From NCBI RefSeq assembly GCF_964213995.1, contig NC_135804.1:71052001-71116000 (forward strand): DNA of 64,000 nt. Reading direction: 5' to 3'. Numbering within the stretch: position 1 is the first letter of the stretch; every line of letters begins with the position of its first letter. Position numbers and translations under genes: made by a program. The DNA comes from Mustelus asterias (taxonomy: Eukaryota). Below the pieces are notes generated by a model that had not been told where the DNA came from, made no database searches, and saw only the letters and a program-made list of their open reading frames with translations. Of this stretch, positions 8,043 to 50,251 are shown piece by piece.

Positions 8043-8861
8043 TTAAATGGTTTTAAAGTGCTGTGATTTCAACGTCTTCTTCTCTCTTCGCTTCTTCAGT
8101 CCCTTTTCCAGAAATCTGACTGCGGTTTGTACCCATTTCTCATTCGCTTTCGCACAAATTCTCATATTCCGTCTGTTTGTAAATCTGAAAGAATGAAATG
8201 AGATGTCATTATCAGAGAGTTACAGACACCAGCTCCATATCTTTCATTTCAACACACTGCGGTCAAAACATCTTGAAAGACTTACACAATGGCGGGAATG
8301 GAGCAGCCAATTGTTTTCTTGTAGCTTACTAGCCTTTTATGAACAGTAGGAGTGGGTTTAAAATTCTCACAACATTTGACTGTTACAGTGCCAGCTGCAA
8401 TGAGATGGAGAAAGAGACACAGTTAAATATGGGATGGGTATCACAGCAGATTCTCGCTGATAGTAACATTATCCTTCAGCTGTTTCCATAGAAATACATC
8501 AACAAACCATTCGGCCCAACTGATCTATACTGGACCTCCTTTATGAACCTCCTTCAATAGTCACCTCTCAGCTTTCACTTTTCGAGAAAAAAGATACAAC
8601 TTGTTCAATCTTTCTTCTCTCATCTGGGATCATATTTGGAATAACCACATTGAAAACTGATAAATAACACGAGCAATTGGTGGAAGCCAGCAGACTATTT
8701 TAAACTGTCTGTCACAGTTTAGTTCATTCTGACATTCTCGGAGAATATTGCCAATAAGGAAGTCTCTCTCTCTTACCCGGTGAAGCAGCAACATCCTGGA
8801 TCAAGCAGATCAGCAGTGTTCCCAAAACAGCAGCAGCCACACAGTGTGCTGTCTTCATCAT
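8043..8861 (-). CDS. CC chemokine (CCL19/21-like), copy 1, 111 aa, 3 exons
   Basis: Exons 8861-8777 (MMKTAHCVAAAVLGTLLICLIQDVAASP, signal peptide), 8394-8286 (AGTVTVKCCENFKPTPTVHKRLVSYKKTIGCSIPAIV) and 8184-8043 (FTNRRNMRICAKANEKWVQTAVRFLEKGLKKRREKKTLKSQHFKTI*). GT-AG introns of phase 1 and 2, four canonical Cys and the WV motif. GCSIPAI recalls CCL21 but orthology is not established. Confidence 0.93.
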
Positions 8862-8929
8862 GTCCTTGCCCAGCTTGGAAGTGTTGAGTGTTGAAGAGTG
8901 AGTGTGCGTTGTCAGGAGCCAGTTATCAC

Positions 8930-9125
8930 CTCATGGTTGAAATTGTGTAAAACTGCAGAGTCTGCAATAGGGAGACCCCCTGGAACTTTGCCCATTCGCC
9001 AGCAATGAAAGTTCTCCAGTGTGATTGTTCCTCCGTTTCGGCATTCCCTGAAATGGGAAGTGCATGTTGTTCTGTGAATGGGAGTTCTTGGGTTAAGCAG
9101 CACTGAATGCCTGGAACTTCCTGGG
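8930..9125 (-). promoter_or_regulatory. putative proximal promoter of chemokine copy 1
   Basis: GAS-like TTCAGGGAA (9044-9052, minus), kB-like GGGGTCTCCC and C/EBP-like TTACACAAT are conserved with copies 2 and 3; the TATA position reads TTTCAA. Confidence 0.5.
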
Positions 9126-11594
9126 TCGGTGATTCTTCGACTGTCAGCTCATTTTCCCCAGATAATCTCACCACTTCCCCATCTGGGCAAAGTGAGAAAA
9201 ATCGAGCTTCCTGATTGGACCATTCCACACTGAGCACCCTGTGGGACACAGGTCTGAGCAGGCAGTGAGTTTAAACATCAAAATATATCAGTGTGTGTGG
9301 AAAAGGCAAAAAGAGTGAGTTTTCATAACACCTTTCACCATCTCAAGACATGTGAGAATCGTTCACAGTCACTGAAACTCTTCTGACATGTTGTCACTGT
9401 TGTAATGTAGGGAAGGCAGCAGGAAATTTGTACACAGCAAGATCCCACAAACAGCAATGTAATTATCGCCAGATAAACTGTTCTGATGATGTTGATTGAA
9501 AGATGTATAATTCCCAGGACACCAAATGAAGCCATGTGATATTTTACACCCACTTGAGAGGGAAGACAGGGCCTCAGCTTAACGTCTCCCATGAAATGCG
9601 GCACCACAGGCAGTGCATCATTCCCTCTGTGCGGCATTGAAATGTAAACCGAGGTTTTGTGCTCCAGGTTTCTGAGTGGATTTTGAGGCTCTGACCTGTG
9701 TGAGTGGTGAGAGTGAGACCCAATGAGCCACAGCTGAGAATGAGATCAGTGATGATGTTAATGAAAAAATTATCAATAGTTCTGAGCTGCTCCTTGTATC
9801 CTCCTATCTCCAAGTGGGAATTAGTTAGCAACCAGACTGTAGATATACTCTGATATCCATTTAACTCTCCTGTGTTTGCACCACTTTGAAACAGCTTACA
9901 GTGTTGGCATGATGTTTCTAAGCATGATACCAAACTCTCCAGCATGTGACTGACCATGCCATACCATCATCTGCCCATAGATTAGCACACCCATAATGTT
10001 AACCCTTTATACTCCACATAAATGTCACATTGTAGATCTCAGATATCAGAGAATGGAATGTAATCATCTCTTTACACAAAGTGAGTTAGTTACCCTCGAG
10101 AATCATTAATATTTATCACAAAACTGGAAAGTAACAAGTGTTGGGAGAATTGCTTTGTGGATCCAGTCCGGAAACACCGTCAACATTCTGCTTGTGCCCC
10201 AGTAGAGTATTCACCGCGTCATCAGTCATTGTTTTTTGAAATGGCTTAAATGGTGTTGCGCTTTCATTGTCTTTTCACTCAGTCTCCAATTCTTCAGTCT
10301 CCTTCCATAAGAATATAAGAACTAGGAGCAGGAGTAGGCAGTTCAGTCCCTCGAGCCTGCTCTGCCATTTAACACAATCATGGCTAATCTCAACTTTGCC
10401 TCAACTCCACTTTCCTGTCCATTCTCCATAACCTTTCACCCAATGCAGCCCGCTTGATTGCTACCACTTCCACAAACATTCACTCCGTCCACCACCACCA
10501 CCAACTGTGGCAGCTGAGTGTAACATGTGTCAATGTGGAACACCAACACCTGGCAGTTCCCCTCCAAATCACTCACCATCCTGACTTGGAAATATATTGC
10601 CGTTCCTTCACTGTCGCTGGGTCAAAGTGCTGAAACTCCCTCCTAACAGCACTATGGGTGCACTTACACCACATGGACTGCAGTAGTTCAGGAAGGCAAT
10701 TCACTACCACCTGCTCAAGGGCAATTATGAATGGGAAATAAATCCTGGTCTAGCCAGCGACATCCAGATACCAAGAATAATTTTTTAAAAGATGGCAACT
10801 GAGAAACAGAGTGTGTCCTCTTGCACCAACATTGAATGTATTCAATAAGTGGCTAGCTGTAGCACTTGGGGCAAATGGGATCAAAGGTTATGGGGAGAAA
10901 GCAGGATTAGGCTATTGGGTTGGAAGATCAGCCATGATCATAATAAATGGTGGAGCAGGCTTGAAGGGCCAAATGGCCTCTTCCTGCTCCTATCTTCTCT
11001 GTTAACAGTGTAGTTCACATCTTATACTCAATATATAAGATGGCCCTGATGGGGGTGGTATAGAATTCTTAGTATGAGGCCCTTCATTTTAGTTTTACTA
11101 TAATATGTACACTAGGTTAAGGTAATTATAAAGTGCCTTATATAGTGAGAATTCACAATGTGCTGGAACAACATATGCAAAGGTATTATAAACTACAAAG
11201 ATATCATAACTGTATAACCACAAATTAACCAAATATTATAAGCTTAAACTGTATTTTCAATATATATGTATTGTGCATCTTGACCAACTTTGTTCTGAAT
11301 GCAGCATGAAGGGAATCAGTGGGATAGGCCGAATTCTTTTAATACAATGGAGCACAGAAAGGCAGCTTGTGTTATCTGTTTTCAGATACGTGAAAACAAG
11401 TTTAATCATAGGCCTGCTATTTAAGGGAGTAAATTTGTTCATGGGTAGTAAGGCTGGGTAACAAACTGATAAAGGAGGCCCCAGTTCCAGTGAAAGAGTG
11501 ACTCCTTTCGCCAATTAAAATTCGCAGATGTTGGCTATGACCTTGGATACTAGTAATGACGTGGATTAGGTTTCCGAGGTAAAGGGGGAGGAAC

Positions 11595-22500: not shown

Positions 22501-22513
22501 CTAAAGATAACAT

Positions 22514-24287: not shown

Positions 24288-24391
24288 TGGGAATCCAATC
24301 ATACAGATGATTCACATACACTAAGAATCTGTTCACACAATGGATCCATTTACACTAAGAATCCATTCACACTGAGTTTTCATTTAGGGTG

Positions 24392-30175: not shown

Positions 30176-30248
30176 ATGAGGTGATAACTGGCTCCTGACA
30201 ACCCACACTCACTCTTCAACACTCAACACTTCCAAGTTGGGCAAGGAC

Positions 30249-31369: not shown

Positions 31370-32669
31370 AGAGAGAAGAAGACATTGAAGGCATAGCACT
31401 TTAAAACCATTTAAAATACAGAGACTGTTGACGTGACGCGATATCCTACTGGCTTACAGACAGATTCAGGATGAGATTGAAATGTTGATTCTGTGATCAT
31501 TTGTAAATTGACAGTTGATGTGATAATTAGCACTAAAAGTTGCCATGGTAACTACATTTTCCCGTGTAAACCACAGTCGCCAAAGGTGACAGAAACAAGA
31601 TGGTGTCACTGTATCAATGTAAGTCCCAGCCAATGAAAGCCCTGAGGTCGGGCAATATTCCATAGACTGCACATTCAACAGTGTGAGGCTGTGTGAGTAT
31701 AAACAATCAGTCTCCCCATTTCAGTGGGGTTTGTCCCTCAGACCCCTGACTGTCTTTGGCCAGAGAAGATGAACAGAATTACAACCACAGCTCTCACAAA
31801 TGGGTCAGCAGTGAGGGGTCAGAGAAAGGAGGGGATGGAGAAACACTGGGAGACAATGGGGAAGTTGGTGGGGAGGCACTAGGGGTCAGGGAGAAACTGG
31901 TGGAGGGGGACATACTGGTGGAGGGGGTAGGGGAGACTGGGGATGGGGGAAACACTGAAGGAGGGGGGAAGGGAGACACTGGGGGAGTAGTTGGGGAAGA
32001 CACTGTTTGTGGGATGGGGAAGACACTGGGGATAATGGGTGAGGGAGACATTAGGATTCTCTGTTTTGATTGCTAATCTCAATGTTTTTATTATTTGATC
32101 CCTTCTCTTCCCTCATTTCTTCACTGATTTCTCAGCTCCTGCTTTTTATAAATTGAAAATGTGATGATGAAATAAAGGAGATTTTTGATTAAGTTTCTCT
32201 TGTTGTCTCGAAGCAGCTTCATTCTTCATTTTTATTCAACAGATGAACAGTGTTGAATTACCTCCCTGTTTTCATCCTCATTTTCCATTCACTCACACTG
32301 TGAGCTGATTAATGATCCTGAGGCTTTAAACAGAATGCGCAAGTATCCACGGCACATTCAGCTGTCATAGGAGCAGAGGAGTAGGAGAAGGTCATTCAGC
32401 CCATCAAAGCATGGAATGGAGACTATGCCAAAGTCGCAGAAACAGGGTGTTCTCGGGAATTTTCACATGGGATTCAGAGGGGATATCAGCCTCTAGTGGT
32501 TGTTGAGTTGTTTTCTTTTATCCACAAACTAGGTATATGTAACTTTCCATTACTTTATCAGTGTAATTTATTAACTAATTAAATAAATAAACTTGGGCAG
32601 AAGTGACAAGGCTGGTGGCATGCAGTGACTGCAGCATGTGGGAATGTGTGGGAAGCACTGTAATTCCCC

Positions 32670-34262
32670 AAAGGGATGAACTGAGAGAGATCAATATTAG
32701 TAGAGAAATAATGCTGGGACAATTGATGGGATTGAAGGTAGATAAATCCCCAGAGTACTTAAGGAAGTGGTTCTAGAAATATTTGATGCCTTGGTGGTCA
32801 TCTTCCAGGATTCTATGGACTCTGGAAGAGTCCCTGCAGATTGGAGGGTAACTGATTTAACTCCAATTTTCAAAAAGGGAGGTAGAGAGAAAACAGGGAA
32901 TTATAGACCAGTAAGCCACACATTGGTAGTGGAGAAAATTCTCAAATCCATTATCAAGGACGTTATAGCGGAGCATTTAGAAAGCAGTGGCAGGATCAGA
33001 CAGAGTCAGCACAGATTTATGAAAGGGAAATCATGCTTGACAAATCTGCTGGAATTCTTTGAAGATGTAACTCGTAGAGTTGACAAGGGGAGCCAGTCGA
33101 TTTGGACTTTCAGAGAGCGTTTGACAAAGTCCTCCACAAGAGATTATTATGCAAGGTTAAAGCGCATGGCACTGGGGGAAATGTATTAAGATGGATAGAA
33201 AACTGGTTGGCAGAGAGGAAACAAAGAGTAGGAATTAATGGGTGCTTTTCAAATTGGCAGGCAGTAACTAGTGGTGTGCTGCAGGGATCAGTGCTGGGAC
33301 CCTAGTTATTCACAATATATATTAATGATTTGGATGAGGGAACAAAATGTAACATTTCAAAGTTTGCAGATGATACCAAGTTGGGTGGGAGCATGAACTG
33401 TGACAAAAATACAGAGATCCTTCAGCATGATCTGGCCAGGTTGGGTGAGTGGGCAAATTAATGGCAGATGCGGTATAATTTTTAATAAATGTGGGGTTAT
33501 TCACTTTGGAAGCAAAAACAAGAAGGCAGACAACTACCTGAATGGCTGTAAATTGGGAGAGGGGAGTGTGCAGCAGAACGTGGGTGTCCTTGTGCACCAG
33601 TCACTGAAGGTAAGCATGCAGGTGCAGCAGGTGGTAAAGAAGGCAAATGGTATGTTGACCTTTTGTGAGAGGTTTTGAGTACAGAAGCAGGGATGTGTTG
33701 TTGCAATTATACAGGGCCTTGGTGAGGCCATACCTACAATATTGTGTGCAGTTTTGGTCTCCTTTTCTGAGGAAGGATGTTTTTGCTCTCGAGGGAGTGC
33801 AGCGAAGGTTTACCAGGCTGACTCCGGGGATGGCAGGTCTGATGTATGAGGAGAGATTGACTGGGTTAGGATTGTATTTGCTGGAGTTCAGACAAATGAG
33901 GGGGATCTCATAGAGACTTATAAAATTCTAACAGGACAGACAGGGTAGATTCAGGGAGGATATTCCCGATGGTTGCGGAGTCCAGAACCAGGATTTGAGG
34001 TAGATCATTTAGGATGGAGATGAGGAGACATTTCTTCACCCAAAAAGTAGTGAGCCTGTGGAATTCATTACCACAGGAAGTAGTTGGTGCCAAAACATTG
34101 AATGTATTAAAAGGCAGTCAGATATAGCACTTGGGGCGAATGAGATCAAAGGGTATGAGGAGAAAGCAGGATTAGGCTATTGAGTTGGACGATCAGCCAT
34201 GATCGTGATGAATGGTGGAGCAGGCTCGAAGAGCCAAATGGCTTCCTCCTGCTCCTATCTTT
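32670..34262 (+). mobile_element. decayed CR1 LINE ORF2 (duplicated at about 51490-53085)
   Basis: Frameshifted RT fragments in ORFs 32767-33913. Confidence 0.88.
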
Positions 34263-34768
34263 TATCTGCAGAAGTTGTCTTAGGCAACTTCAGCTCCAAG
34301 TTTCTGAGCTGGAGGCTGAGCTGCGGACATTGTGAAGCATCAGAGTGGGGGAGAGTTACCCAGACACTTTGTCCCAGGAGATAGTCACTCCCCTTAGGTT
34401 AGACAGAATATCAGTCAACAGTCTTGACTGCGAGTCAGGACAGTAAAGGAAGCCAGCATGCAGTAAGGGAGGAGCCTCAGTCCCTGGCTTTGTCCAACGA
34501 GTACGAGGTGCTTGTTAGCTGTGTGGATGAGCAGATTGGTCAGGGACCATAGTGAATGACGCCATTCAAGTTGGGATGAGGTGAGTGTGAAGCATCCTAT
34601 GTGTGAATGCTTGTTTAAAGTATGACACCATGATAATGTGGTTTGATCGTGATTAAAACTGTTTTTGTTTTAAAAAAAAGAGGAATATGGTAGTGATGGA
34701 AAGGGTACAGTCAGCGGTATAGGTAGTGTTCTCTAAAGCTGTGAGCGGGAACTCCGAAGTTTGTGTTG

Positions 34769-35105
34769 CCCTCTTTTTAGGTCAAACCAAACCAAGTAAA
34801 CAAACTCAGATTAAATCAGGACAAAGTAAAAGGGGCAGCTCCCCAAAAAGGAGGGGGAACAGCCCGAACAGAAATCAAAGTACAAAGGAAACTTAAAAAC
34901 ATCAAATTAAAATGTGATTATTGGGGTCAATAATGCACCCCAACCCCTGCGGTGCCCAGCGGTCGCGGAAAGCGTCAAGCACGCCCGTGAACACCGCATG
35001 CTCCCTCTCCAGGGACACCTGGTCGCGAACGTAGCCGCGGTAGAGGGGAAGACAGTCAGGATGGACGGCCCCCTCGATCGCCCGCAGCCTGGACCGGTAT
35101 CCCAG
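34769..35105 (-). mobile_element. L1/Tx1-like LINE 3' fragment (duplicated at about 53590-53926)
   Basis: Minus-strand translation ..RGYVRDQVSLEREHAVFTG..AFRDRWAPQGLGCIIDPNNHILI* resembles a Tx1 ORF2 C-terminus, followed by a T-rich 3' UTR. Confidence 0.55.
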
Positions 35106-35339
35106 TGCAGAATTTTGAATCTACTTACCTAACTAATTATTAAGGCCAGTTTACTGCTTTCCTCCCTTCAGGGAATTGTTTCGAGCAACCGATTTATTTT
35201 CCAATTGCAGCCCGACCGTCACAATGTGTAATGACTGACCTTGGAGCAGGCAGCAAACCTGCCAAGAGTATCAAAACCTATACACATTCATACAGAATTC
35301 TCCTGCTGCTGCCTTCTCACTGGGCTGTGCATTTGAAGC

Positions 35340-36540
35340 TCCTTTTTCAAGCTTTGCACATCTTTCCTTGGTCGTCACTAGCTCTTTGACTCTACTGCTA
35401 ATAGGAAATTTTCACAGATCTCCGTGTGCCGTGATGTAGTTCCTAGTAAGCTGAGCAGTTGATTTTTTCTCTGCCTCTCAGCCTCCATGTATTCTACGGA
35501 GCTCTCCCGGCAATTTTCCACTGTCATACTGAAGACTTTTATCAGGTTGTAATCTTTTTCAAGTTGATTTTGGAAGATTTCGGGGTCCTTCACTGCTGCA
35601 ACGTGTGGTATATTGGTTTTGACTGGTTGAAAAAGGTTGCAGAGACATCGATATGTCTCAATCATAACTGTTTACTGAAGGAACAGAACTATTGACAGAT
35701 GTACAAGACTAAATGTAACTCAGTGCAAGCTGTGAGCTTTCTCCGTCGAGGCTCTTTGTCATGTGACTGTCTCTTCCATCATCATGTGGGCGGTACTGTT
35801 TTTCCAGTCCCCCATACTGGGTGGGATTTTCTGTCGCTCCCTGCCGCATGTTTTCCAGTGACTGAATCATTGGCCAGTGCCAGGACCTTCCGGTCTCACT
35901 GCTATCAACGGCGTCTCCCATTGTTTGCACCCTCTGCTGCTGGAATATCCGTGGCAGGGGGGTCGCCACTGGTGGGACTGGAAGTTCCTGCCAGCGGAAG
36001 CAGCCGGGAAATCCTGCCCGTTAACTCTGTCAGCCGTAAACATCCTAACACATCTTCCTCCCTCCAAACTTCCAACACATGGAACAAGAAACATGACTCT
36101 TCTCTTTCCACCATAGAACATTCTGTAACACCTCTGTTAGGCCCCTAACTTTGTACCCTGGAGAAAATACCACACACATCTCACAGCAGTGGAACTGCCC
36201 GTTTATCCCCTTGACTATCAAATCTCAAATTATTCCAGTGTTCCGACATTCTCTGTACAATCCTTTCCAACACGGAGCCAGAGTGAAGACTGTGATCCTT
36301 AGCGATGTTGTCATGCTCACCAGTATTCAATGCTGAATACCAATTTGACCGGCTTGCACACTCCTGGAGGATTGCTGCACTGCTTGCCTCTCTCTACCCT
36401 TATTATTCTGAACTCTCTCCTGCAGATGATGATCGAGGAAGCAGTCTGCCACGTGGACGGGCACTCTTGTTATGAGTCCAGCTGCCCCCTGATCTCAGGT
36501 GCCCTCAGTGTAATTGAGCAACAGGAGACACATCCCACAA
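35340..36540 (-). mobile_element. very old CR1 5' portion (ORF1 esterase and endonuclease remnants) with nested MITE at about 35819-36020; duplicated at about 54160-55360
   Basis: Minus translation IVKGINGQFHC..VVFSPGYKVRGLTEVLQNVL resembles CR1 ORF1; ORF 35378-35665 resembles an APE region; MITE termini GGGTGGGATTTT / GAAATCCTGCCC. Confidence 0.5.
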
Positions 36541-36804
36541 GGCAGCTCCCTCTTGAGAAAGTGACCTGATATGCCCAAATGGAGCAGGAATTGCAAGTTA
36601 CAGATTACAGCTGTCCCACCATTCTAATTCAAAACTTAAAACTTCTTGGCTACAGGGTGATTATTTATATAATTGATGTTCATTTTCTCAATGAGGTACT
36701 GTCATATGTGCAGATATACGCACACACAAACATACACACACATACACACTTACACTCTATGCAAATTGGAAGTATTTTATTGTGTTTCTCTAATTTTTTC
36801 ACAT

Positions 36805-37380
36805 CTTAAAATAAGAGCAAGGAGGTCATGCTGGAATTATATAAAACATTCGTTAGGCATTAACCTGAGTACTGTGTGCAGTTCCGGTCACCTGATTACA
36901 GACAAGATGTCATGGTATTAGCGAGAGTACAGAAGAGATTGGTGAGGATGTTGCCAGGACTGGAAAATTGCGGCTATGAGGAAAGATTGGATAGGCTGGG
37001 GTTGTTCTCCTTGGAACAGAGGAGGTTGAGGGGAGATTTGCCTGAGATGTACAAAATAGTGAGGGGCTTGGATTGAGTGGATGGGAGGAGTCTATTTAAC
37101 CCAGCAGCAAGGTCAGTGACTGGGGCGCACAGATTGAAAGTGATTGGTGAAAATATTAGAAGAAAAACCTTTTCACCCAGAGGGGGTCTGGAACTCACTG
37201 CCTGAAAGGGTATTAGAGGCAGAATCCCTGAACTTATTGAAAAGGTGTATGGGTTGCACCTGAAGCACTGTAACCTGCTGGACCAAACCTGGAAAATGGG
37301 ATGAAGCTGGGTGGCTCGTTTATCGGCCGGTGCAGACACTTTGGGCAGAATGGCTTCTTTCTGTGCCTATGATTCTATGA
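36805..37380 (+). mobile_element. CR1 3' fragment (duplicated at about 55626-56200)
   Basis: ORF 36876-37076 RMLPGLE..YEERLDRLGLFSLEQRRLRGDL; CTATGATTCTATGA tail. Confidence 0.85.
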
Positions 37381-38025
37381 TTGTCCCACAGTCCAGTTTC
37401 AGCATTATCATAGAATTCTACATTGCAGAAGGAGGCCATTCGGATCATCGAGTCTGCACTCACATGCAGACACGGGGAGAATGTGCAAACTCCATACAGA
37501 CAATGACCTGAGGCTGGAATTGAACCTGGGTCCCTGGTACTGTGAGGCAGTAGTGCTAACTACTATGCCACCATGCTGTCCATTATTACCATTATCCTTG
37601 GTGATTACTCTGTGTGCTTGGAGTGCCAAATCAGGCTCCATTTCTACACAGTCAGGTTGGGGGCAGATTGCTCAGCACAAAGCAAACTCCTGCAAAGCTA
37701 CATATTCCACCACTGAGCCCCTACTGACAGTTTCAGGAGGCTTGTGTGACACTGCCTTTCATCTGGAACTTGACCAAGAACAGGAATCCAAATAATCAGG
37801 TTCGTGGACTCGGATGTTAGAATGTATTAAATCTCACCTCAATTGAATCCTGACTTGAAACTTTTCCAATGTAATTATGCAGCAGAACCACAGTCACATT
37901 CCTGCTCTAGTCACAGCCTGGAAACTTCTCCTGCCTCCTTTCTCTGTCTCAGGATAAATAGGGAGTTGCTCACCCCTCTCTTACTCACTGTTACTGTCCA
38001 CTTGTGCTGTGAACAGCCTTGAGAT

Positions 38026-40543
38026 ATGAAGTGTTATCTTCACATTGGACTCCTGCTGACCATGATCTGGATCAAGGTCAGTGATCGCGCAGGTAAGCGT
38101 CAACACATATACAGTCTACGTAGGTTTGACTCCAATCATTTGTGGAAGTTTCTTGGTATCAGGTATGCACTTTGAGATCGGATAAACAGGTGAATGTCCT
38201 TCCTGCTGGGCTCAACACAGAAAGAATGGACTGTCCAGTGACTCCTGTATTAGAGAGAGAGAAGAATTCATCCAGGATTCTATTTCTGATTACTGTCCAA
38301 TGATCCCTGGGTTAGAGAGAGAAATAAAATCATTCAGATAAAAGCAAAATACTGGAATCTGAAACAAAAACAGAAAATGCTGGAAAATCTCAGCCTCTGA
38401 CAGCATCTGTGGAGAGAGAAGAGAGCCAACATTTCGAGTCTAGATGACCTTTCGTCAGAGCACAGACGAAGCTCTGACGAAGGGTCATCGAGATTTGAAA
38501 CTTCGGCTCTATTCTCTCCCCACAGTTACTGTCAGACCTGCTGAGATTTTCCAGCATTTTCTGTAAAATCATTGAGGATTTTATTCCTGATCACTGTCCA
38601 GTAATCCCTGGGTTAGAGAGAGAGAGATAAATCATCCAGGATTCTGCTCCTGATCACTGTCCAGCAACTCCTGAGTTGGAGAGAGAGAGTGGAAATCAGC
38701 CAGGATTCTGCTCCCGATCACTGTCCAGTGATCCCTGGGTTAGAGAGACAGCACTACCTCAGTACTGACCCTTAAATAGCAAGGTGCTCCTGCAATATTG
38801 ACCTTCTGACAGTGCAGCACTCCGACAATGCTGATCCTCTGACAGTGCGGTGCCCCCTCAGTACTGACCCTCTGACAGAGCAGAACTTCATCAGTACTGA
38901 CCTACTGAAAGTGCAGGACTCAATATTGACCTTCCACAGTGCTGGCTCCCTCAGTACTGACCCTCTGACAGTGCTGGCTCCCTCAGTACTTGCCCTTTGA
39001 CAGTGCAGTAATCCCTTAGTACTGACCCTACAACAGTGCTGACCTCCCTTAGTACTGACCTTCTGACATTGTAGCACTCCCTCAGTCCTGGCTGTCTAAC
39101 TGTGAAGCACTCCTTCAGTACTGAACCTCTGTCAATGCAGCACTCCTTCACTACTGACTTGCCGACAGTGCAGCACTCCCTCAGTACTGACCCTCCAAGT
39201 GGAAATGTGAGTCGGAAAAGCAGTTGGAAAAGGAGTGGGAAATGGAATGGGAATGAGAGCGTGAATTGGAGCAGGAATGTGTGCCGGAATGGGAGCAGTT
39301 TGAGAGTATCAATGGAAATGGAAATGTGAGTGGGAGTTAGTGCAGGAATGGGGGTAGGATTTGGAGTGTGAATTGAATTGGGAACCTGAGTGGGAATGTG
39401 AGTCGCTTGGGGAGTATGAATGGTGTGAAATATGAACACAATGCAAGCATAGGATGGAGAAGGGAACATGAGCTGGGGGAACAGAAACACCAGGAAGAAG
39501 AACTGGGAGCAGGTAGAAGCTGACTGAAGTTAGCCGAGCCTAGCTGAAGAAGTCAGGTGACCTGCCAGGACTGAAAGAGCCCTTGTCGGTCAGTTTATTA
39601 GATTTCCTACAAGGCAGTTGAAAGGATTTTGGCAGTGAGATCAAACTTGGATTTTGACAGACTGTGCTTTGTGGCAGCTTAGAATCCATAGCACAGAATC
39701 TCTACAGTGCAGAAGGAGGCCATTCGGCCCATCGAGTCTTCACCGACTCTGTGAAAGAGCATCTTACCCAGGTCCACGTGTCTGCCCTATCCCTGTAACA
39801 TCATGCATTTACCATGACCAATCTACCTAACCTGCACATCTTTGGGCTTCCAGTTTGAATGCACTATCTAATCCCAGACCCCGAAATAAATGTATTGAAA
39901 AGGATGGAACAGACATGAGATAACATGTGGAGTAATTGTGAAATTAGGAAGTTACACAATTCAACTTACTTTCCCCAGGAAATACAGTTCCTAAAAATAT
40001 TTTTCAATCTCTGAGAAAAAACCATCCGGAATGTTCCAAAACATGTGAAAATTATGGCAGAATTCCAAAAGCAACTGGGTCAGAAACAGTCAGTTGGGTA
40101 TTTATCCACAGAGGGAGTGGGGAAAGGGAATGGAGAGAGGGCACAGGGGAGAAGGGAGAGGTCACAGGGGAGAGGGCACATGGGAAAGGACACAGGAGAG
40201 AGGGCGCAGAGGTGAAGGCATGGGGAAAGGAGAGAGTGGAGAATGGGACGGGGAGAGGACCCAGGGGAAAGGGGCAAGGATATTGAATCAATCCTGCTTA
40301 ACAGTGTTATCAACTTGTCTCGCCACCTCCAGAGATTTCGGTACAGAGATCGACAGCATTCCTTTTTCCTGCACTCCCTATAGAACTGTACCATATTACA
40401 CTTTGCACAGTTTGAAATGCTCCTGAGTCTCTGCGTTCAATTTTGTTCAGTCTACTGAAGAAGAGAATCTTTTCTCCAGTGAGCAGAGTTTTTGGCAGCA
40501 GGGAATCCCAGCTATAAAAGGGCTCAGTGATCTGTTTGAATAA
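38026..40543 (+). CDS. candidate small secreted protein gene (chemokine-like layout), unit A, about 92 aa
   Basis: Exon 1 38026-38092 MKCYLHIGLLLTMIWIKVSDRA(G) with donor G|GTAAG, phase 1, and GATAAATA about 70 bp upstream. Putative exon 2 39979-40097 after TTACTTTCCCCAG. Putative exon 3 40451-40543 followed by AATAAA at 40551. Exons 2-3 are speculative. Confidence 0.35.
38230..39480 (+). repeat. minisatellite cluster: about 59-bp unit (38230-38750), about 33-bp CAGTACTGACCCTCTGACAGTGCAGCACTCCCT unit (38750-39197), GGGAAT repeats (39200-39480); duplicated at about 57195-58440
   Basis: Directly visible tandem units. Confidence 0.8.
38335..38563. mobile_element. palindromic Penelope-type non-autonomous element with 10-bp TSD (duplicated 57302-57530)
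   Basis: Inverted arms around CACAGACGAA; TAAAATCATT at 38325-38334 and 38564-38573; hammerhead-like cores on both arms. Confidence 0.75.
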
Positions 40544-41153
40544 TATTACAAATAAACAGCCATCAAAACACTGGAAATGCTCAGCAGGTTTGGCAGCATC
40601 TGTGGAGAGAGGAACTGAGTTAATGTTTCAGGTCCATAAGCTTTCATCAGAAGGTTTTCCCAATTGTTAAAGTGTCACCCATCCACCTTGTACACTTCCC
40701 TCTTGTCCCAGTACTAGTGTCAAAGCCCCAAGATTCTGGAAGTTTCCCCGTCGCCACACGTTACATTGCCTGATCAATCCTGGACATGGCACTGGGAGGA
40801 ATCCCTACGTTGAATCTTTAACATCCCACATTTTCAACTCCTCCTAAAAGCCTTTTCTGTCAATGGTAATGGTTCCAACATAGAAAATATGAGCAAGAGT
40901 AGGCCATTCAGCTCTTCGAGCCTGCTCCACCATTCAGTATGATTCAGGCTGATCATTCAACTCAATAGCCTGATCCCACCTTCTCCCCAAGTCCTTTGAT
41001 CTCCTTCACCCAGGAGCTAAATTTAACTGCTTCTTCAAAGCAAACAATATTTTAGCCTCAAACAAAAACAGAAAATGCTGGAAAATCTCAGCAAGTCTGA
41101 TAGCATCTGTGGAGAGAAAATGCAGCTAACATTTTGAGTTTGGATGACCCTTC

Positions 41154-44100
41154 TGTTATGATGGCAATGGGGGATCATCAACCCTTGGGTCTCATAGAAT
41201 ATGAGCTCCCTATTAGGCAAGTGAAGGGAAGGAGCAGTGTGGGGTTTAAAACCAGCTGGCTCCTCTCAGGCCGGCAGTCGATAGACTCGGGACTGATAAG
41301 CGCTCTGGAGTCACTGAAAGGCATTTCGAACACACTGTAAATATATCGTGATGGTGACGGAAGACTGGCCTTGGTAAGATTATTACATTGATGACGAGCA
41401 GTAAAGTGAGTTTTTTCTTTGCTCCAGACCATCTGAACTGTTGAGACAAGGAATCCTCCTATAAGAAATATGTCTCTTTTTGGTAAACTTGAAGCCTACA
41501 TTGGAAACATTGAAGAGTGGGTCCAGTGTGCAGAGCTCATGTGTTTGTTTTTGGGCCAACAATTTTGAGGAGAACGAGAAACAGGAAGTGATCCTGTTGA
41601 CGGCATGTGGGGTTTCGACCTTCAATGTAATAAAAAGCCTGACTCAGCGAGATGCCCCTGACTCCAAAGGCTTTAATGAATTGGCGGAATTGGTTAAAGG
41701 CTATTATGACCCAAAACCCTCCATAATACTCCAGTGATACTGCTTTAACACAACAGGATGAACCCCTGGGGTATCTGTCACCGAATTTCAGACCAGGCTT
41801 GAAAATTGGCAGAGCACTGTGAATTCGGGCCATGTTGCAAGATAGACACGTCTGTGGAATTAACAATGCAACAGTCCAAGGAAAATTATTGGCAGAACTC
41901 AATTTGAATCTAAAGAAGGCCATTGAGATAGCCCTATCATTGGAGAATGCAGAGGAAGGAGCTGAGGGGATATCAGATATCAGTGTCCTCCAATTGGGGG
42001 AGGGACCTTAAGTAACGTCCATCCCTCAACTGAGAGCAATGATATTTTTAAATATCTTAGAATCCCATACAGCCCAAGTTGATTCACGAGGCAGTCAAGG
42101 AGGTTCAGGACCAGCCTTCAGACTCCAAGGAGCCTAGGTCAGAAGGTTGTAGATGTCAGGCGTTGGACTATTGAAATTGTTGCAGAAGACCACAACCGAG
42201 GCAAAGATATGGGGACAGTCAAAACGCGTGCAGTTGCAAAAAAAGGCCAAAGCCAGTACAGGACCATACATTGGAGTATGCCCACAACCAGAAAAAGGGA
42301 CGATGCAATTAAATTGCATCCTATGACAAAGATTGCCTGCATAATGGTGGAGTTGTTAGTAAATGACTACCCATTAAAAAATGCAAGTGGATAGAGGGGC
42401 TGCAGTCTCTGTTATCGGGGAGCAGACTTATAATTGCTTCCAAACTGGTATTCAGCTCCTGGACTTAGAAAGCACAAAGGCCCGTCTGGCCACCTACACT
42501 GGGGAACCATTACAGATAAAGGGCACCGTGGCAACCCTAGTGACTTACAGGTAGCAATCAGTTCGAATTCTACTCATCAATGTATGGGGACAAGGACCTA
42601 GCCATATGGGGAGAGATTGGCTCCAGCGCATCAGACTGAACTGACTGGAGATTTTCAGATTGGGCATGGGAGGTACTATGCAAAGTCATAAATAAGTGCC
42701 CCAAAGTCTTCCAAGAAGGGTTTGTTGGCCCCCTTGCATACCCTAAAACGGAAACATCAAAGGCAGTCTTGAGGGGTGACACAGGTGGAGGCTTTTAATA
42801 GAATTAATTCTGTCCTCTTTATTGGCCCACTTTGACCTCAAAAAAATCCTTACCTTGGCCAGTGATGCTTCTCCTTATGGGGTTGGGGCAGTACTGGCAC
42901 AATGCTGGAGAGATGGAACAGAGAAGCCTATTGCATTCGCAGCTAGGGCCCTATCGGACACTGAGCGGAGGTATTCCCAGATTGAGAAAAATAGGTTGGC
43001 AATTGTCTTTGGCGTTAAAATGTTCCATCAATATGCCTATGGTAGATGCTTCATCATACTAATTATCATAAACCATTGCTGGAACTCTTTAAAGAAGACA
43101 AGGTCATATCCTCCATTGCCTCCAACTAGCGAGAGCATTGGACTTTGTTCCTGGAGGCTTATGAATACCTCCTAGAGCACTGTCCCAGGACCAGGATAGC
43201 TAACGCCGATGCTGTGAGTCATCTGCTGTTGCCCATAAATCCGGCTCATGGAAGAGGTTATGATGACCCTCAATATTTTGGACAGCTTGCCGGTATTAAT
43301 CAAGACATTGACACAAAAGGATCCAGTCCTATCTAAATTAAAACATATAATATTATTATTATATCAGAAGTTAGCCCTCAAATAAAACAAAACACTAGTT
43401 GATGAAGAGAGACGAGCTTAGTGCTGAGGATGGCATCATCCTCTTGGGTTCCCATGTCCCATGTCACCCAGGGCGACATCCGATACTTATGGAATTATAT
43501 CATAGCTATCCTGGGATTTCAAAGATGAAGATGCTAGCCAAGAGCTACACATGGTGGCCCAGTCTTAATGTGGACATTAATGACTTGGTCAGACAATGAG
43601 AGTCGTGACAAGAAAATCAAAACCTCCCTCCACAGCCTGCCTAAATCCATGGGAGAGGCCTGGTAGACCCTGGGTGTGAGTACATGTGGACTTTGCCAGC
43701 CCTTTTTTGGGCTCCATGTTCCTGATTATACTCGACACGCATTCCAAATTGTTGGAGATATTTCTCATGATTTTCACCACTTCCCATGCTACTATTGAGA
43801 AACTAAAACAAAGTTTCTGCATGCATGAGTTACCTGAAGTCCTAACCTCTGACAATGGCACTGCCTTTACTAGAACTGAGTTTCAGGCCTTCACGCTTTC
43901 CAATGGAATCAACCACATTAGGACAGCACCCTATCACCCATCATCGAATGTGTTGGCTGAATGGGCGGTGCAGACTTTTAAGCTTGGCATGAAGAACCAA
44001 CCCGCAGCATCCACAGAGACCAAACTGGCATATTTGACTATCGGACTACCCCTTACACAATGACAGGAATTGCCCCAGTGGGTTTATTAATGGGATGGAG

Positions 44101-44918
44101 GCTTCAGACAAAATTAAGCTGACTGTTCCCAAACCTGGCAGGGAGGGTGGAGCCCAACAAGAGAAGCAGAAGAAGAATAATGATCCTGCAAGAACAGAAA
44201 GAACATTCAAAACTGGTGACCCAGTCCACATGAGGAACTTTGGGGATAGTCGCAGTTGGGTCCCTGGGGATTGTAACAGAAAAGGGAGCTCATGTCTTTT
44301 AAGTACAGGGCAAAATTGTTAAGAAACAACTGGAACATCTCAGGAGTAGGGAGCCCATGCCAGTGCAGGCCTTATTAGCAGCCATGCGGTTTGCCACTGC
44401 CAGCATTGAGCCACAACTGGAAGTCAACACACACCTGCCCCTCCAGGTGATGAGGTCACGGATTCCAAGATGGAAGCAGAATAGACCGACACCCCAACGG
44501 ATGCAAGACCCAGGAAGAACCGACGACAGTGATTTCATGGCGCTCCCTTTGGAAGCAAATGTCTCCAATCCCTTTCACATCCCTTGATCCGGTCCTTCGT
44601 CCAATCGACCCCAGGCTGATCGCTAAGCAGCGGAAAAGGCCCTCCTGTGGCAGGCATTTTGGGGAAGAAATGGACTTGAGGGGGGAGGGATGTTATGATG
44701 GCCACAGGGGACCACCTGTGGGCTTCATAGAATATTAGGCGAGTGGAAGCTTGCCCAATAGGAAGAAGCAGCGGGGGTTTCGAACCAGTTGGCTTCACTC
44801 AGGTCGGCAGGCAAAAGACTTGGGCTGACCTATACTCTGTAGCCGCTGAATGGCATTCGAAAAACACTGCAAATAAAGGGTGATGGTGACGGAATCTGGT
44901 CTTGGTAAGATTATTACA
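41154..44918 (+). mobile_element. decayed Gypsy-type LTR retrotransposon with both LTRs, RT largely deleted
   Basis: LTRs TGTTATGATGG..GATTATTACA at 41154-41387 and 44691-44918; PBS-like TTGATGACGAG; polypurine tract GAGGGGGGAGGGA; gag remnant (KQEVILLTACG), RNase H (LASDASPYGVGAVL, YSQIEK), integrase (VDFASPF, SDNGTAF, APYHPSSN..AE). Confidence 0.9.
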
Positions 44919-44992
44919 ATTTTGTCAGAGCAATTTTGGCCTCAACTGCTTTCTGTGGTAATAAATTCCACAGACTTACCATGCTCTAGCAT

Positions 44993-45420
44993 CAGTGCCG
45001 GGTTTAGACTTGGTGAGGCCCTAAGCTATATAAAGCTTGGAGGCCCCTTGTTAAAAAGTTACACCAAAAGGTCTCACAAAGGTGCGTACCAAAACAGGAC
45101 CTTGGGTCACCACAAAAAAATTGAAAACATAATTATGCCTTTTAATTATTTAATAGCAAGGTATTTAAAGTGAAAAATACAAATTATTTTCAAATGAATG
45201 CATTTACTGATTACATATTTATCATTCGGCTGGCTTGATCTCTCTCATAGATTTTGGTAATTTTTTGAGTTGCTCTTCAAGCTGGTGCTTTCTTTTTCTT
45301 TTCTGGTATCCGCTCTTAAATGTTCTCTTCATTGTAAACCTTCTGAAATTTTGTGAGGCCCCTGCGGATTGTGAGGCCCAAAGCTGTAGCTTGTTTAGCT
45401 TGTGCCTAAATCCGGCACTG
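44993..45420 (-). mobile_element. non-autonomous hAT-like DNA transposon
   Basis: 15-bp TIRs CAGTGCCGGGTTTAG / CTAAATCCGGCACTG; contains MKRTFKSGYQKRKRK.., resembling a hAT transposase N-terminus; no clear 8-bp TSD seen. Confidence 0.65.
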
Positions 45421-47390
45421 CTCTTGGTGAAGACATTTCTCCTCATCACAGTCCTAAACGGTGTACCCTGTATCCCAAGACTGTGACTCTTGGTTTTGCA
45501 AGCCCTGCCATCAAGAACATCCTTCCTGCATTTAATCCTGTTCACATTTTATAGGTTTGTATGAGGACCCCCTTATTCTTCAGGAATCCAGTGAATACAA
45601 TCCTAACGGTCAGGGAGCCGTTGCAGTCTCTGACCCCGCTCTTCGGAGGCTGCAGCGGCGACTTCAGACTTTCATTTTGCAGGTCGATAACAGCGCGAAT
45701 GCGGATCGGGCCAGAAGACGGTAAAGTGGGATTTGGCGGTAGAGTTGGGCGCGCGGTTTATTATGTCAATTTAAAAGAATGCAAATGCATTTAAATCGCC
45801 GGACCCGAGCCCAAATCGGGTGTCGGTAAAGCCGCGATCTGCTCGGAATCGGGTGCAGATCGCGGTATAGGCCCGACACCCAACTTTACTGCGATTTCGC
45901 ACCCGTTTTCGGGCGCGATGTTTTGGTAAAATCAGGCCCTGGGAATCCAATCATACAGATGATTCACATACACTAAGAATCCATTCACAATGAGTTTTCA
46001 TTTAGGGTGATAGAATCAGAGATTGACAGCATGGAAACAGGCCCTTCGGCCCAACTTGTCCATGCCCGCATTTTGCCCATATCCCTCTATACCCATCTTA
46101 CCCATGTAACTGTCTAAACGCTTTTTAAAAGACAAAATTGTACCCGCCTCTACTACTACCTCCTGTTCCAGACACTCACCACCCTTTGTGTGGAAATAAT
46201 TGCCCCTCTGGACCCTTTTGTATCTTTCCCCTCTCACCTTAAACATATGTCCTTTAGTTTTAGACTCCCCTAACTTTGGGAAAAGATTTTGACTATCTGG
46301 CTGATCTATCCCCTCATTATTTTATTGACCTCTATAAGATCACCCCTAAGCCACCGCGCTCCAGAGAAAAAAGTCCCAGTCTATCCAGCTTCTCCTTATA
46401 ACTTAAACCATCAAGTCCCGGTAGCACCCTAGTAAATCTTTTCTGCACGGTTTCTAGTTTAATAATATCCTTTCTACAATAGGATGACCAGAACTGTACA
46501 CAGTATTCCAAGTGTGGCCTTACCAATGTCTTGTACAACTTCAACAACACATCCCAACTTCTGTATTCAATGTTCTGACATTGAAGACCAATTTACATTG
46601 AAGATCCATTCATACTGAGGATCCATTCACACTGAGCATTCATAGAATCGTAGACTCCCTCACCATAATCCCACATTATTACCCAGCTAATCCCCCTAAC
46701 CTACTCATTTTTGATGATCCAATTACATTGAGAGCCAATTCATTCTGAGGATCCATTCACATTGAGGATTAATTCAGATACTTTTATTGAATTCGAATTC
46801 CACCATTTACCGTGGTGGGATTCAAAACTGGATCCCAGAACACTCGCTGAGTTTCTGGATTAATAGTTGAGCGAAAGTACCACTAGGCTGTCGCCTCCCC
46901 GAGGGTTCATTCTCACTGACAATCAATTTCACATTGAGAACCCATTCATACCTTGGAATTCCTTATCACTGAGAATCAATTCATACTGCGAATCCATACA
47001 CACTGCGAATCCATTCAGACTCGAGAATCCATTCACACTGACACTCAATCATACTGAGAATCCATTCACAGAGAGTTAATTTGTGTTGGGGAGAAATGGG
47101 GGGGCGGTGGGGGGGGGGGAGGGATCTGGAAAGTGGGTTTCTGATGAGTGAATGAAGAATGGGTTAAATCCACAGTGATAGACCTGAGAAGGAGACTGAA
47201 TGAAAAAGACAATGAAAGCGCAACACCATTAAAACCATTTCAATTGCAGTGACTGATGCAGTGAAATACTCTACTCAAATGTGGTGAATCCTCCACTGGG
47301 GCAGAATGTTGAAGGTGTTTCAGGACTGGATCCACAAAGCAATTCTCCCAACACTTGTAACATTCCAGTTTTGTGATGAATATTAATGAT

Positions 47391-47488
47391 ATAGTGGGGG
47401 TAGGGCCTGGGTGGGATTGTGGTCGGTGCAGACTCGATGGGCCGAATGGCCTCCTTCTGCATTGTAGGGTTTCTATGATTTCTATGAT
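47391..47488 (+). mobile_element. 5'-truncated HE1-type SINE, present only in unit B
   Basis: Absent at about 27770 in unit A; ends in TTCTATGAT, sharing ATGAT with the target. Confidence 0.8.
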
Positions 47489-48931
47489 TCTCGAGGGTAA
47501 CTAACTCCCTTGTGTAAAGAGAATGATTACATTCCATTCTCTGATATCTACAATGTGACATTTGTGTGGAGTATAAAGGGTTAACATTATGGGTGTGTTA
47601 ATCTATGGGCAGATGATGGTATGGCATGGTCAGTCACATGTTGGAGAGTTTGGTATCATGCTTTACAACATCGTGCCTACTTTGTAAGTTGTTTCAAAGT
47701 GTTGCAAACGCAGGAGAGTTAAATGGATATCAGAGTATATCTACAGTCTGGTTGCTAACCAATTCCCACTCGGAGATTGCAGGATACAAGGAGCAGCTCA
47801 GAACTATTGACAATCTTTTCATTAACATCATCACTGATCTCATTCTCAGCTGTGGCTCATTGGGTCTCACTCTCACCACTCACACAGGTCAGAGCCTCAA
47901 AATCCACTCAGAAACCTGGAGCACAAAACCTCGGTTTACATTTCAATGCCGCACAGAGGGAATGATGCACTGCCTGGGCTGCCCACATTTCATGGGTGAT
48001 GTTAATCTGAGGCCTGTTGATCCAGAAGGAATTCTTCCAGTGTAGACAATAAAAATATAACAAAACTTACTCCAACTTATAAATCAAAGAAAAGCTTTTA
48101 TAAAGAAACATCATTACTCCAAACTTGAGGCCTCACTCTGAGCCATTCCAAGTTCCCCACAATTCCCAACATGTTCTAATTTATACTGAGTCAGCTGGTC
48201 ATCACGGCATTCTCTCATTGGTGACATGGTTTACTCAGCCAACTGACCCTTACAGCTTGTTACCATTGGTCACATCACAACAGATGCAATGTTATCACGA
48301 GTTACATTCTAACAAGGCCGTGTCGGCCCTCTCAAGGTGGGGTAAATTATCACATGGCTTTATTTAGGAGTTGTGGCTTTTGCTACCAAATAAACCTGTT
48401 GGACTTTAATCTGGTGTTGTTAAACTTCTTACTTTATTCAGGATAGCAGGGCAGCTCTCCCTGGTGTCCTGGGAATTATACATCTTTCAATCAACATCAT
48501 CAGAACAGTTTATCTGGCGATAATTACATTGCTGTTTGTGGGATCTTGCAGTGTACAAATTTCCTGCTGCCTTCCCTACATTACAACAGTGACAACATGT
48601 CAGAAGAGTTTCAGTGACTGTGAAGCATTCTCACATGTCTCGAGATGGTGCAAGACAGTTATGGAAAGACAGTCTTTATGCCTTTTCCACACACACTGAT
48701 ATATTTTGATGTTTAAACTCACTGCCTCCTCAGACCTGTGTCCCACAATGTGGAATGGTCCAATCAGAAAGCTCGATTTTTCTCACTGGTTATCTCTTTG
48801 CCCAGATGGGGAAGTGGTGAGATTATCTGGGGAAAATGAGCTGACAGTCGAAGAATCACCGAACCAGGAAGTTCCAGGCATTCAGTGCTGCTTAACCCAA
48901 GAACTCCCATTCACAGAACAACATGTACTTC

Positions 48932-49052
48932 CCATTTCAGGGAATGCCGAAACGGAGGAACAATCACACTGAGAACTTTCATTGCTGGCGAATGGGCAAA
49001 GTTCCAGGGGGTCTCCCTATTGCAGACTCTGCAGTTTTACACAATATAAACC
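48932..49052 (+). promoter_or_regulatory. putative promoter of chemokine copy 3
   Basis: Same motifs as copy 2: TTCAGGGAA 48936-48944 and TATAAA 49045-49050. Confidence 0.55.
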
Positions 49053-49125
49053 ATGAGGTGATAACTGGCTCCTGACAACCCACACTCACTCTTCAACACT
49101 CAACACTCCCAAGTTGGGCAAGGAC

Positions 49126-50251
49126 ATGATGAAGACAGCACACTGTGTGGCTGCTGCTGTTTTGGGAACACTGCTGATCTGCTTGATCCAGGATGTTGCT
49201 GCTTCACCGGGTAAGAGAGAGAGACTTCCTTATTGGCAATATTCTCCGAGAATGTCAGAATGAACTAAACTGTGACAGACAGTTTAAAATAGTCTGCTGG
49301 CTTCCACCAATTGCACATATTATTTATTAGTTTTCAATGTGTTTATTCCAAATATAGAATCATAGAATCCCTACAGTGCAGTCGGAGGCCATTCGGCCCA
49401 TTGAGTCTGCACCGGCAACAATCTCATTTGGCCCTATCGCTGTGACCCCACATATTTACCCCGTTAATTCCTCTAACCTACACATCCCAGGACACTAAGG
49501 GGCAATTTAGCATGGCCAATGTACCTAACCCGCACATCTTTGGACTATAGGAGAAAACCGGAGCACTCGGAGGAAACACACGCAGACACGGGAGAATGTG
49601 CAAACTCCACAGATAGGGACCCAAGCTGGGAATCGAACCGAGGCCCCTGGAACTGTAAGGCACAGTGCTAACCACTGTGCTACCGTGCCGCCCAAACTAT
49701 GATCCCAGATGAGAGAAGAAAGATTGAACAGATTGTGTCTTTTTTCTAGAAAAGTGAAAGCTGAGAGGTGACTGTTGAAGGAGGTTTATAAACACCAGTA
49801 CAGATCAGTTGGGCCAAATGGTCTGTTTCATTTCTGTTGATGTATTTCTATGGAAACAGCTGAAGGATAATGTTACTATCAGCGAGAATCTGCTGTGATA
49901 CCCATCCCATATTTAACTGTGTCTCTTTCTCCATCTCATTGCAGCTGGCACTGTAACAATCGAATGTTGTGAGAATTTTAAACCCACTCCTATTGTTCAT
50001 AAAAGGCTAGTAAGCTACAAGAAAACAATTGGCTGCTCCATTCCCGCCATTGTGTAAGTCTTTCAAAGTGTTTTGACCGCAGTGTGTTGAAATGAAAGAT
50101 ATGGAGCTGGTGTCTGTAACTCTCTGATAATGACATCTCATTTCATTCTTTCAGATTTACAAACAGACGGAATATGAGAATTTGTGCTAAAGCGAATGAG
50201 AAATGGGTACAAACCGCAGTCAGATTTCTGGAAAAGGGACTGAAGAAGTGA
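49126..50251 (+). CDS. CC chemokine (CCL19/21-like), copy 3, 96 aa, 3 exons
   Basis: Exons 49126-49210, 49945-50053 and 50155-50251 (FTNRRNMRICAKANEKWVQTAVRFLEKGLKK*); ATTAAA at 50327-50332. Confidence 0.93.

What the first reader, a model, noticed from the sequence alone, without database searches (positions are those of the whole stretch)
8043..50251. Hidden, expanding cluster of three intact CC chemokine genes
Seen: three genes with identical signal exons, CC...C...C pattern and phase 1/2 GT-AG introns, none visible in the ORF track. One is inverted and two are in tandem. Known: this exon layout is the standard chemokine structure, and chemokines evolve by birth-and-death duplication. Inference: a lineage-specific expansion of a CCL19/21-like gene (GCSIPAI motif) that lacks the usual Pro after the fourth Cys (CAKANEKW).
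Basis: partly seen in the sequence, partly recalled or inferred. Interest (0 to 1): 0.7.

Follow-up and report, generated by a model that had tools for sequence, protein, structure and literature searches.

The report
Shark chemokine array with hybrid copies
These are three of seven near-identical, already annotated shark immune-signal (chemokine) genes lying where mammals keep CCL17 and CCL22, and the repeats also carry the front end of a neighbouring chemokine that lacks its family's defining cysteine pair, which likely yields hybrid transcripts.

Summary
The three genes are real, intact and spliced, but they are not hidden: all three proteins are RefSeq records. They are 3 of 7 copies of one gene (A); five form a head-to-tail array of 19-23 kb units, 98-99% identical. 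They are not CCL19/21. The array abuts CIAPIN1 and POLR2C, marking the CCL17/CCL22/CX3CL1 locus, while a CCL21/CCL19-like pair lies on another chromosome near PHF24. The missing Pro and the multi-copy state are shared with other sharks. Only the last B is complete. RefSeq lists a hybrid of B exon 1 and A exons 2-3, which I could not confirm with reads. The inverted copy has an altered TATA box and a read-through stop.

The parts
8777..8861 (-). Gene A copy 1 (inverted), exon 1, signal peptide
   Evidence: protein equals RefSeq XP_078066433.1
8286..8394 (-). Gene A copy 1, exon 2 (CC and Cys3)
8043..8184 (-). Gene A copy 1, exon 3; CGA at codon 97 where the other six copies have a stop, giving 15 extra basic residues
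   Evidence: 4 of 4 runs laid show the stop form
8937..8942 (-). Altered TATA box of copy 1 (TTTCAA; TATAAA in the other six copies)
30168..30173 (+). TATA box of copy 2
30249..31369 (+). Gene A copy 2 (exons 30249-30333, 31063-31171, 31273-31369), 96 aa
   Evidence: equals XP_078066434.1
30473..30810 (.). About 340-nt SINE-like insertion in intron 1, present in the six plus-strand copies and absent from copy 1 (the SINE label is my inference from its high read depth and target-site-like ends)
29238..48114 (+). First full tandem unit (about 18.9 kb): gene A plus the 5' end of gene B; later units 22.9, 21.5 and 21.9 kb
38026..38092 (+). Orphan gene B exon 1 (ATG, 22-codon signal peptide, phase-1 GT donor) with its upstream promoter region; can splice in frame to exon 2 of copy 3
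   Evidence: RefSeq isoform X2 P0001
38093..38654 (+). Remnant of gene B intron 1; similarity to the complete B gene ends inside a 63-nt minisatellite (38566-38748)
49126..50251 (+). Gene A copy 3 (exons 49126-49210, 49945-50053, 50155-50251), 96 aa
   Evidence: equals P0006, XP_078066435.1/437.1
56993..57059 (+). Second orphan gene B exon 1; next gene A exon 2 lies at window-equivalent 72848

Best explanation
The three genes are copies of one spliced shark CC chemokine gene at the CCL17/CCL22/CX3CL1 locus, likely multiplied by unequal crossing-over, and their product likely attracts leukocytes through a CCR4-type receptor. Shown: gene structure, 7 intact copies, flanking genes, spliced contigs in relatives, chemokine domain. 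Inferred: the repeated unit ends inside intron 1 of the downstream gene B, so five units carry B's promoter and signal exon just upstream of the next A copy. Both first introns are phase 1, so B exon 1 can splice in frame onto A exons 2-3. This would express the A chemokine from a second promoter, with an N-terminus predicted to be 2-4 residues shorter. Copies are likely homogenised by gene conversion or repeated unequal exchange. The inverted copy 1 is likely an older, decaying duplicate. Gene B itself has lost the N-terminal segment with the CC motif and likely works as a non-signalling modulator of chemokines rather than as a receptor agonist.
For: Structure and intactness: (7 of 7). Array. 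Synteny: the only CIAPIN1 match lies 2 kb behind B's last exon, tail to tail; RNA-polymerase-subunit (POLR2C-type) exons 45 kb further; mammalian order PLLP-CCL22-CX3CL1-CCL17-CIAPIN1 in Fig. S3 of PMC3568907. Elephant shark has one CCR4-group receptor, and three elephant shark proteins expressed in gills and spleen are listed as CCL17 orthologues in a supplement of PMC3964593. Splicing. Fold: three strands and a helix, top matches all CC chemokines (low-confidence model, pLDDT 53). Orphan exons: 5 orphan and 1 complete B exon 1, one B exon 2 and one B exon 3 in 664 kb. Hybrid protein on record under two accessions. Mosaic copies: 132 of 231 site pairs incompatible; copies cluster by species or genus. 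Gene B: 2 Cys in the mature part in 11 of 11 sequences; in-frame stop just upstream of its acceptor, and only two weak micro-exon candidates in intron 1.
Against: Sequence does not pick out CCL17 or CCL22: CCL17 ranks 54th of the 60 rows shown for the family profile; CCL22 and CX3CL1 are not among them; XCL1-ancestor, CCL7, CCL5 and CCL14 rank higher. Synteny rests on one side only: no MARVEL/PLLP or NTF2 match lies near the array, and COQ9 is on an unplaced contig. The receptor is untested. The hybrid rests on the RefSeq model alone, whose evidence I could not see; only one hybrid sequence is on record although five placements are possible; LINE elements lie in the long introns it must span. 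The spliced contigs differ from this genome by about 3-6% and their RNA status is a guess. The signal-cleavage estimate is a crude -3/-1 rule. The NF-kB-like site is not beyond chance (P about 0.10).
Confidence: 0.72

Rival explanations
1. The genes are CCL19/21 orthologues or co-orthologues acting on CCR7.
For: GCSIPAI is present; exon 2 alone matches CCL21 first, at E 0.45; CSIPA occurs in only 1 of 140 unnamed chemokine representatives.
Against: Wrong neighbours; Cys spacing 21, not 24-25; a better CCL21/CCL19 pair sits on C6 near PHF24/KIAA1045; Cx[IL]PA[IV] occurs in 23 of 140 representatives; with the whole protein CCL21 ranks 34th.
Confidence: 0.05
2. The locus is the CCL17/22 locus, but gene A is a shark-specific inflammatory chemokine, like teleost CCL33/35/39, with no one-to-one mammalian orthologue and a receptor other than CCR4.
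For: Best sequence matches are MIP/MCP-type chemokines and an XCL1 ancestor; teleosts carry expanded CCL33/35/39 genes near CIAPIN1; repeated expansion is typical of inflammatory chemokines (PMC3749542 passages).
Against: A CCR4-group receptor exists in elephant shark, with no CCL17/22 ligand assigned in PMC3568907; CCL17 orthologues were proposed there later. Sequence ranks among chemokines are close together and uninformative.
Confidence: 0.3
3. The orphan B exons are passive by-products of duplication and the hybrid isoform is splicing noise or a modelling artefact.
For: No read evidence here; 12-16 kb repeat-rich introns must be spanned; no such hybrid among the 21 family records from other sharks.
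Against: All five orphans keep ATG, open frame, donor and a near-identical promoter; RefSeq lists the hybrid under two accessions; the junction is unique, so reads would be unambiguous. The orphans are young, so intactness is weak evidence.
Confidence: 0.4
4. Part of the array is an assembly artefact (haplotypes or collapsed reads laid in tandem).
For: Units are 98-99% identical and mosaic.
Against: All 15 pairs of plus copies differ (97.75-98.97%), none is near 100%; units differ by whole insertions; there is no N gap inside the array; other sharks also have several records.
Confidence: 0.06

Closest known systems
Mammalian CCL22-CX3CL1-CCL17 mini-cluster beside CIAPIN1 (human chr16, 57.4 Mb)
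   Same: Chemokine genes directly beside CIAPIN1; three-exon CC genes; the CX3CL1-type Cys2-Cys3 spacing of 21 (PMC1082905 Table 1).
   Different: Seven near-identical copies of one gene instead of three diverged genes; no CX3C motif, mucin stalk or membrane anchor; the gene next to CIAPIN1 lacks the CC motif; no PLLP match nearby.
Human CCL3L/CCL4L and mouse Ccl19/21/27 copy-number arrays; teleost CCL33/35/39 expansions
   Same: Recent segmental duplication of chemokine genes, near-identical copies, likely gene conversion (PMC3749542 passages; PMC3568907 Fig. S3).
   Different: The unit is 19-23 kb and cuts a neighbouring chemokine gene inside intron 1.
Human CCL18, formed by fusion of two duplicated CCL3-like genes
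   Same: Exons of neighbouring chemokine genes combined after duplication (PMC3749542 passage).
   Different: Here the donor is a different gene (B), the fusion is at most an alternative isoform, and the parent first exon is still in place.
XC (lymphotactin) and zebrafish CX chemokines (for gene B)
   Same: Chemokines with fewer than four signature cysteines (PMC2416438 passages).
   Different: XC keeps one N-terminal cysteine and its partner; CX keeps three. Gene B keeps Cys3 and Cys4 only, so neither canonical disulphide can form, and it has lost the N-terminal segment too.
CCL19/CCL21
   Same: GCSIPAI-like stretch around Cys3.
   Different: Locus, Cys spacing, DCCL motif; the true pair is on C6.

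Membership tests
CC chemokine (gene A) | Signal peptide, adjacent CC, Cys3, Cys4 and the Trp of the C-terminal helix | tested here: met
CC chemokine (gene A) | PF00048 above cut-off | tested here: met
   45-47 bits against 21.3
CC chemokine (gene A) | Three exons, spliced | tested here: met
   (contigs of relatives)
CC chemokine (gene A) | Three-strand plus helix fold | tested here: inconclusive
   Predicted elements and top matches fit, but pLDDT 53 and best E 7.9e-4
CC chemokine (gene A) | Chemotaxis through a GPCR | not testable with these tools
   needs recombinant protein
CCL19/CCL21 group | Location by IL11RA/KIAA1045/PIGO | tested here: not met
   PHF24/KIAA1045 on C6 near another chemokine pair; array on C4 by CIAPIN1
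CCL19/CCL21 group | CC-X24/25-C spacing and DCCL motif (DCCL as a marker is recalled; it is seen in the C6 pair) | tested here: not met
   X21 and ECCE
CCL17/CCL22/CX3CL1 locus | Adjacent to CIAPIN1 | tested here: met
   POLR2C-type exons beyond it (POLR2C as a neighbour is recalled)
CCL17/CCL22/CX3CL1 locus | PLLP, or RANBP10/NUTF2 as in birds, on the other side | tested here: inconclusive
   No nearby MARVEL or NTF2 match; these searches score only the best candidates
CCL17 or CCL22 orthologue | Best match or clade with CCL17/CCL22 | tested here: not met
   CCL17 ranks 54th of 60 rows shown, CCL22 not shown; no tree with named mammalian sequences was built
CCL17 or CCL22 orthologue | CCR4 agonism | not testable with these tools
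   needs a receptor assay
CX3CL1 | CX3C motif, mucin stalk, transmembrane anchor | tested here: not met
   96-aa CC protein
Named chemokine subfamilies CC, CXC, CX3C, XC, CX (gene B) | At least one N-terminal signature cysteine | tested here: not met
   0 N-terminal Cys in 11 of 11; PF00048 matched only from position 22 of 60

The most novel reading that the evidence does not exclude
Sharks keep, at the CCL17 position, a conserved chemokine of an unnamed cysteine class (Cys3 and Cys4 only, no N-terminal trigger segment) that modulates rather than activates receptors, and in this shark tandem duplication has put that gene's promoter and signal exon in front of five copies of a canonical chemokine, creating an expressed, N-terminally shortened hybrid: a new chemokine gene caught while forming.
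Probability: 0.3. Interest if true: 0.7.

Novelty: new variant of a known kind. Interest (0 to 1): 0.42.

Why it matters
As posed, the finding is ordinary: annotated chemokines in a tandem array. Three points add value. The array shows how a duplication break inside a phase-1 intron can swap promoters and signal exons between chemokine genes, the route proposed for human CCL18. And the donor gene is a strongly conserved chemokine that cannot form either canonical disulphide, which asks how far the chemokine fold and function depend on the CC motif.

Tried and rejected
No RNA holder was listed on record. The B exon 1 bin had no cover in the two RNA-like runs laid, so the hybrid junction could not be tested (repeats swamped the joint table). 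A CC-motif scan missed B exon 2, and I first took B for a broken gene; homologues showed that the exon exists without CC. Homodimer prediction for B gave no answer. The B model is disordered at residues 22-41 and gave no fold match at E 0.001 or better; its listed rows are chemokines. SIGMAR1 and DCTN3, recalled as CCL19/21 neighbours, lie on C1 and not near the C6 pair, so only PHF24/KIAA1045 was used. The NF-kB enrichment (P 0.01) counted one palindromic site three times; corrected P about 0.10, rejected. Contig depth was not used as copy number. No convincing signal exon was found for gene C within 20 kb. The Atlas gave only sub-0.9 chemokine leads for a B homologue. Literature searches listed no paper on this array, on a Cys3/Cys4-only chemokine or on such a hybrid; I saw listings and abstract starts, the library lacks most subscription journals, and bioRxiv supplements are closed.
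Full report
Observation. Copy 1 is on the minus strand (8861-8043, 111 aa), copies 2 and 3 on the plus strand (30249-31369 and 49126-50251, 96 aa each), with GT-AG introns of phase 1 and 2 and no codon difference in the signal exon. The full proteins score 45-47 bits on PF00048. Contigs of 3 of 3 RNA-like runs (two studies, two coded organisms, RNA status a guess) skip both introns; one joint is exact (101 nt, CT..AC) and the others are displaced by 1-3 nt beside mismatches; the DNA-like run covers the introns and lacks these joints. The genes are not hidden: the three proteins equal RefSeq records named C-C motif chemokine 5-like of Mustelus asterias, on a contig of the same length as G000:C4.

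The array. A search of the genome finds 7 copies within 205 kb; 7 of 7 have intact frames and splice sites. Copies 2-6 lie in head-to-tail units of 18.9, 22.9, 21.5 and 21.9 kb that are 98-99% identical and differ by insertions; copy 7 lies about 97 kb after copy 6. Around the gene, the six plus copies are 97.75-98.97% identical to each other and 96.1-96.9% to copy 1. Of 231 pairs among 22 informative sites, 132 are incompatible with one tree, which fits gene conversion or repeated unequal exchange; recurrent mutation or phase errors could add to it. Copy 1 lacks the intron-1 insertion of the other six, has TTTCAA for TATAAA, reads through the stop (CGA for TGA), and has no AATAAA or ATTAAA within 1300 nt of its stop. 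All four runs laid show the stop form, and most other sharks end at or near the same place, so the 111-aa form is likely derived and copy 1 likely decaying.

Which chemokine. The only CIAPIN1 match in the genome lies at C4:71,282,928, minus strand, at the end of the cluster, and POLR2C-type exons follow 45 kb further. In mammals the order is PLLP, CCL22, CX3CL1, CCL17, CIAPIN1, and teleost CCL33/35/39 genes lie near CIAPIN1 (PMC3568907 Fig. S3, parts 1-3 read). Two other genes on C6, with DCCL and 24-residue spacing, hit CCL21 and CCL19 first and lie 0.33 Mb from the one strong PHF24/KIAA1045 match, a neighbour of CCL19/21 in the same figure. Gene A has 21-residue spacing, against 24-25 for CCL19/21 (PMC1082905 passages). 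So the CCL19/21 reading fails. Against over-reading: sequence does not single out CCL17 or CCL22 either, the far side of the synteny was not found, and cartilaginous-fish CCL17 orthologues are already listed in a supplementary table of PMC3964593 (rows seen; I could not check that they are this locus). The missing Pro is a minority state (114 of 140 parsed, of 148 unnamed representatives, have it) but is shared by 26 of 26 family rows from seven shark species. Several near-identical records exist in Scyliorhinus, Cetorhinus, Carcharodon, Heterodontus and Stegostoma (records may include isoforms). In a 26-row tree (hybrid P0001 and a 50-aa fragment left out) Mustelus, Heterodontus and Stegostoma copies each form a well-supported group, as do the two Scyliorhinus species together and the two lamniforms together. 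The multi-copy state is thus recurrent or homogenised, not unique to this lineage.

About 7 kb behind each plus copy lies a second signal exon, at window 38026 and 56993 and at four places beyond the window. It is exon 1 of gene B. In 664 kb examined there are six B first exons but one exon 2 and one exon 3, behind the last copy and tail to tail with CIAPIN1. The five orphans follow the complete gene for about 570 nt into intron 1 and stop in a 63-nt minisatellite. They keep ATG, frame, phase-1 donor and promoter region. Gene A exon 2 has a phase-1 acceptor, so the orphan exon can splice onto the next A copy. RefSeq lists exactly this protein (isoform X2, two accessions). I could not confirm it with reads. 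By a crude cleavage rule A starts at Ser-Pro, ten residues before the CC, and the hybrid 2-4 residues later. The chemokine N-terminus is the part that enters the receptor, and trimming it changes activity (PMC5343877 passages), so the hybrid could differ in potency as well as in expression. Human CCL18 is a precedent for chemokine exon fusion after duplication (PMC3749542 passage).

Gene B. The 83-aa protein (RefSeq name CCL18-like) aligns to CCL18 and CCL3 only from just after their CC motif. In 11 of 11 sequences, from galeomorph sharks and a sawshark, the mature part has two cysteines, Cys3 and Cys4. An in-frame stop lies three codons upstream of the exon 2 acceptor, and only two weak micro-exon candidates, both in the repeat-rich start of intron 1, could supply cysteines. 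Its exon 3 is better conserved than A's (26 of 29 against 21-24 of 29 in three species), and it is near neutral in charge while A is +10. In chemokines Cys1 pairs with the 30s loop and Cys2 with strand 3, so B cannot form either bond. XC and zebrafish CX chemokines keep other subsets (PMC2416438 passages). My best guess, untested, is a modulator that binds other chemokines or receptors without activating them. An earlier AI note of this scan from another genome reports the same gene and locus; it is not independent support, and it means that this point is not first seen here.

Verdict. The array is a known kind of thing and is annotated. The added value lies in the locus assignment, the captured promoter and signal exon with a likely hybrid isoform, and the cysteine-deficient donor gene, whose coding core lies outside the window. 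Interest 0.42.

Noticed in passing
G000:C4:71272353-71281049 (L023-L024); first-exon copies at window 38026 and 56993: Gene B: conserved single-copy shark chemokine with only Cys3 and Cys4, tail to tail with CIAPIN1.
   Followed up: yes
G000:C4:70948543-70948166, minus (L067), 103 kb left of the window: Gene C: a third CC chemokine of this locus with 24-residue Cys spacing; exons 2 and 3 intact, exon 1 not found.
   Followed up: partly
G000:C6:141.59 and 141.65 Mb (L028, L042): The likely true CCL21/CCL19 pair, 0.33 Mb from PHF24/KIAA1045; SIGMAR1 and DCTN3 matches lie on C1 instead.
   Followed up: partly
window 58921-61860 (+): 980-codon open LINE-type frame with endonuclease and reverse-transcriptase domains, inside the intron that the second hybrid would span; partial copies at 18958-19956 and 25592-27613.
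   Followed up: partly
window 25481-27452; also 80527 and -108746 in window-equivalent coordinates: A 2-kb LINE segment is 99.5-99.8% identical at three places of the region, which suggests recent retrotransposition.
   Followed up: no
G000:C2438 (L079, L080) and the gap near C4:71,296,500: COQ9 exons sit on an unplaced contig; a 200-N gap between CIAPIN1 and POLR2C may be where it belongs.
   Followed up: no
P0186 (Stegostoma record): One gene A homologue has a Ser/Thr/Glu-rich C-terminal extension of about 34 residues, reminiscent of a short mucin tail.
   Followed up: no
window 20180-20276, 24287-25416, 45939-47031; 38252-38750; 38749-39192: 17-nt, 63-nt and 33-nt minisatellite families carried in the tandem units.
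   Followed up: no
A1 alignment, residues 27-28 of gene A: A Ser-Pro or Ala-Pro pair at the predicted mature N-terminus is kept in 25 of 25 full-length family rows; it would be a dipeptidyl peptidase IV site (recalled rule) and is absent from the hybrid.
   Followed up: partly
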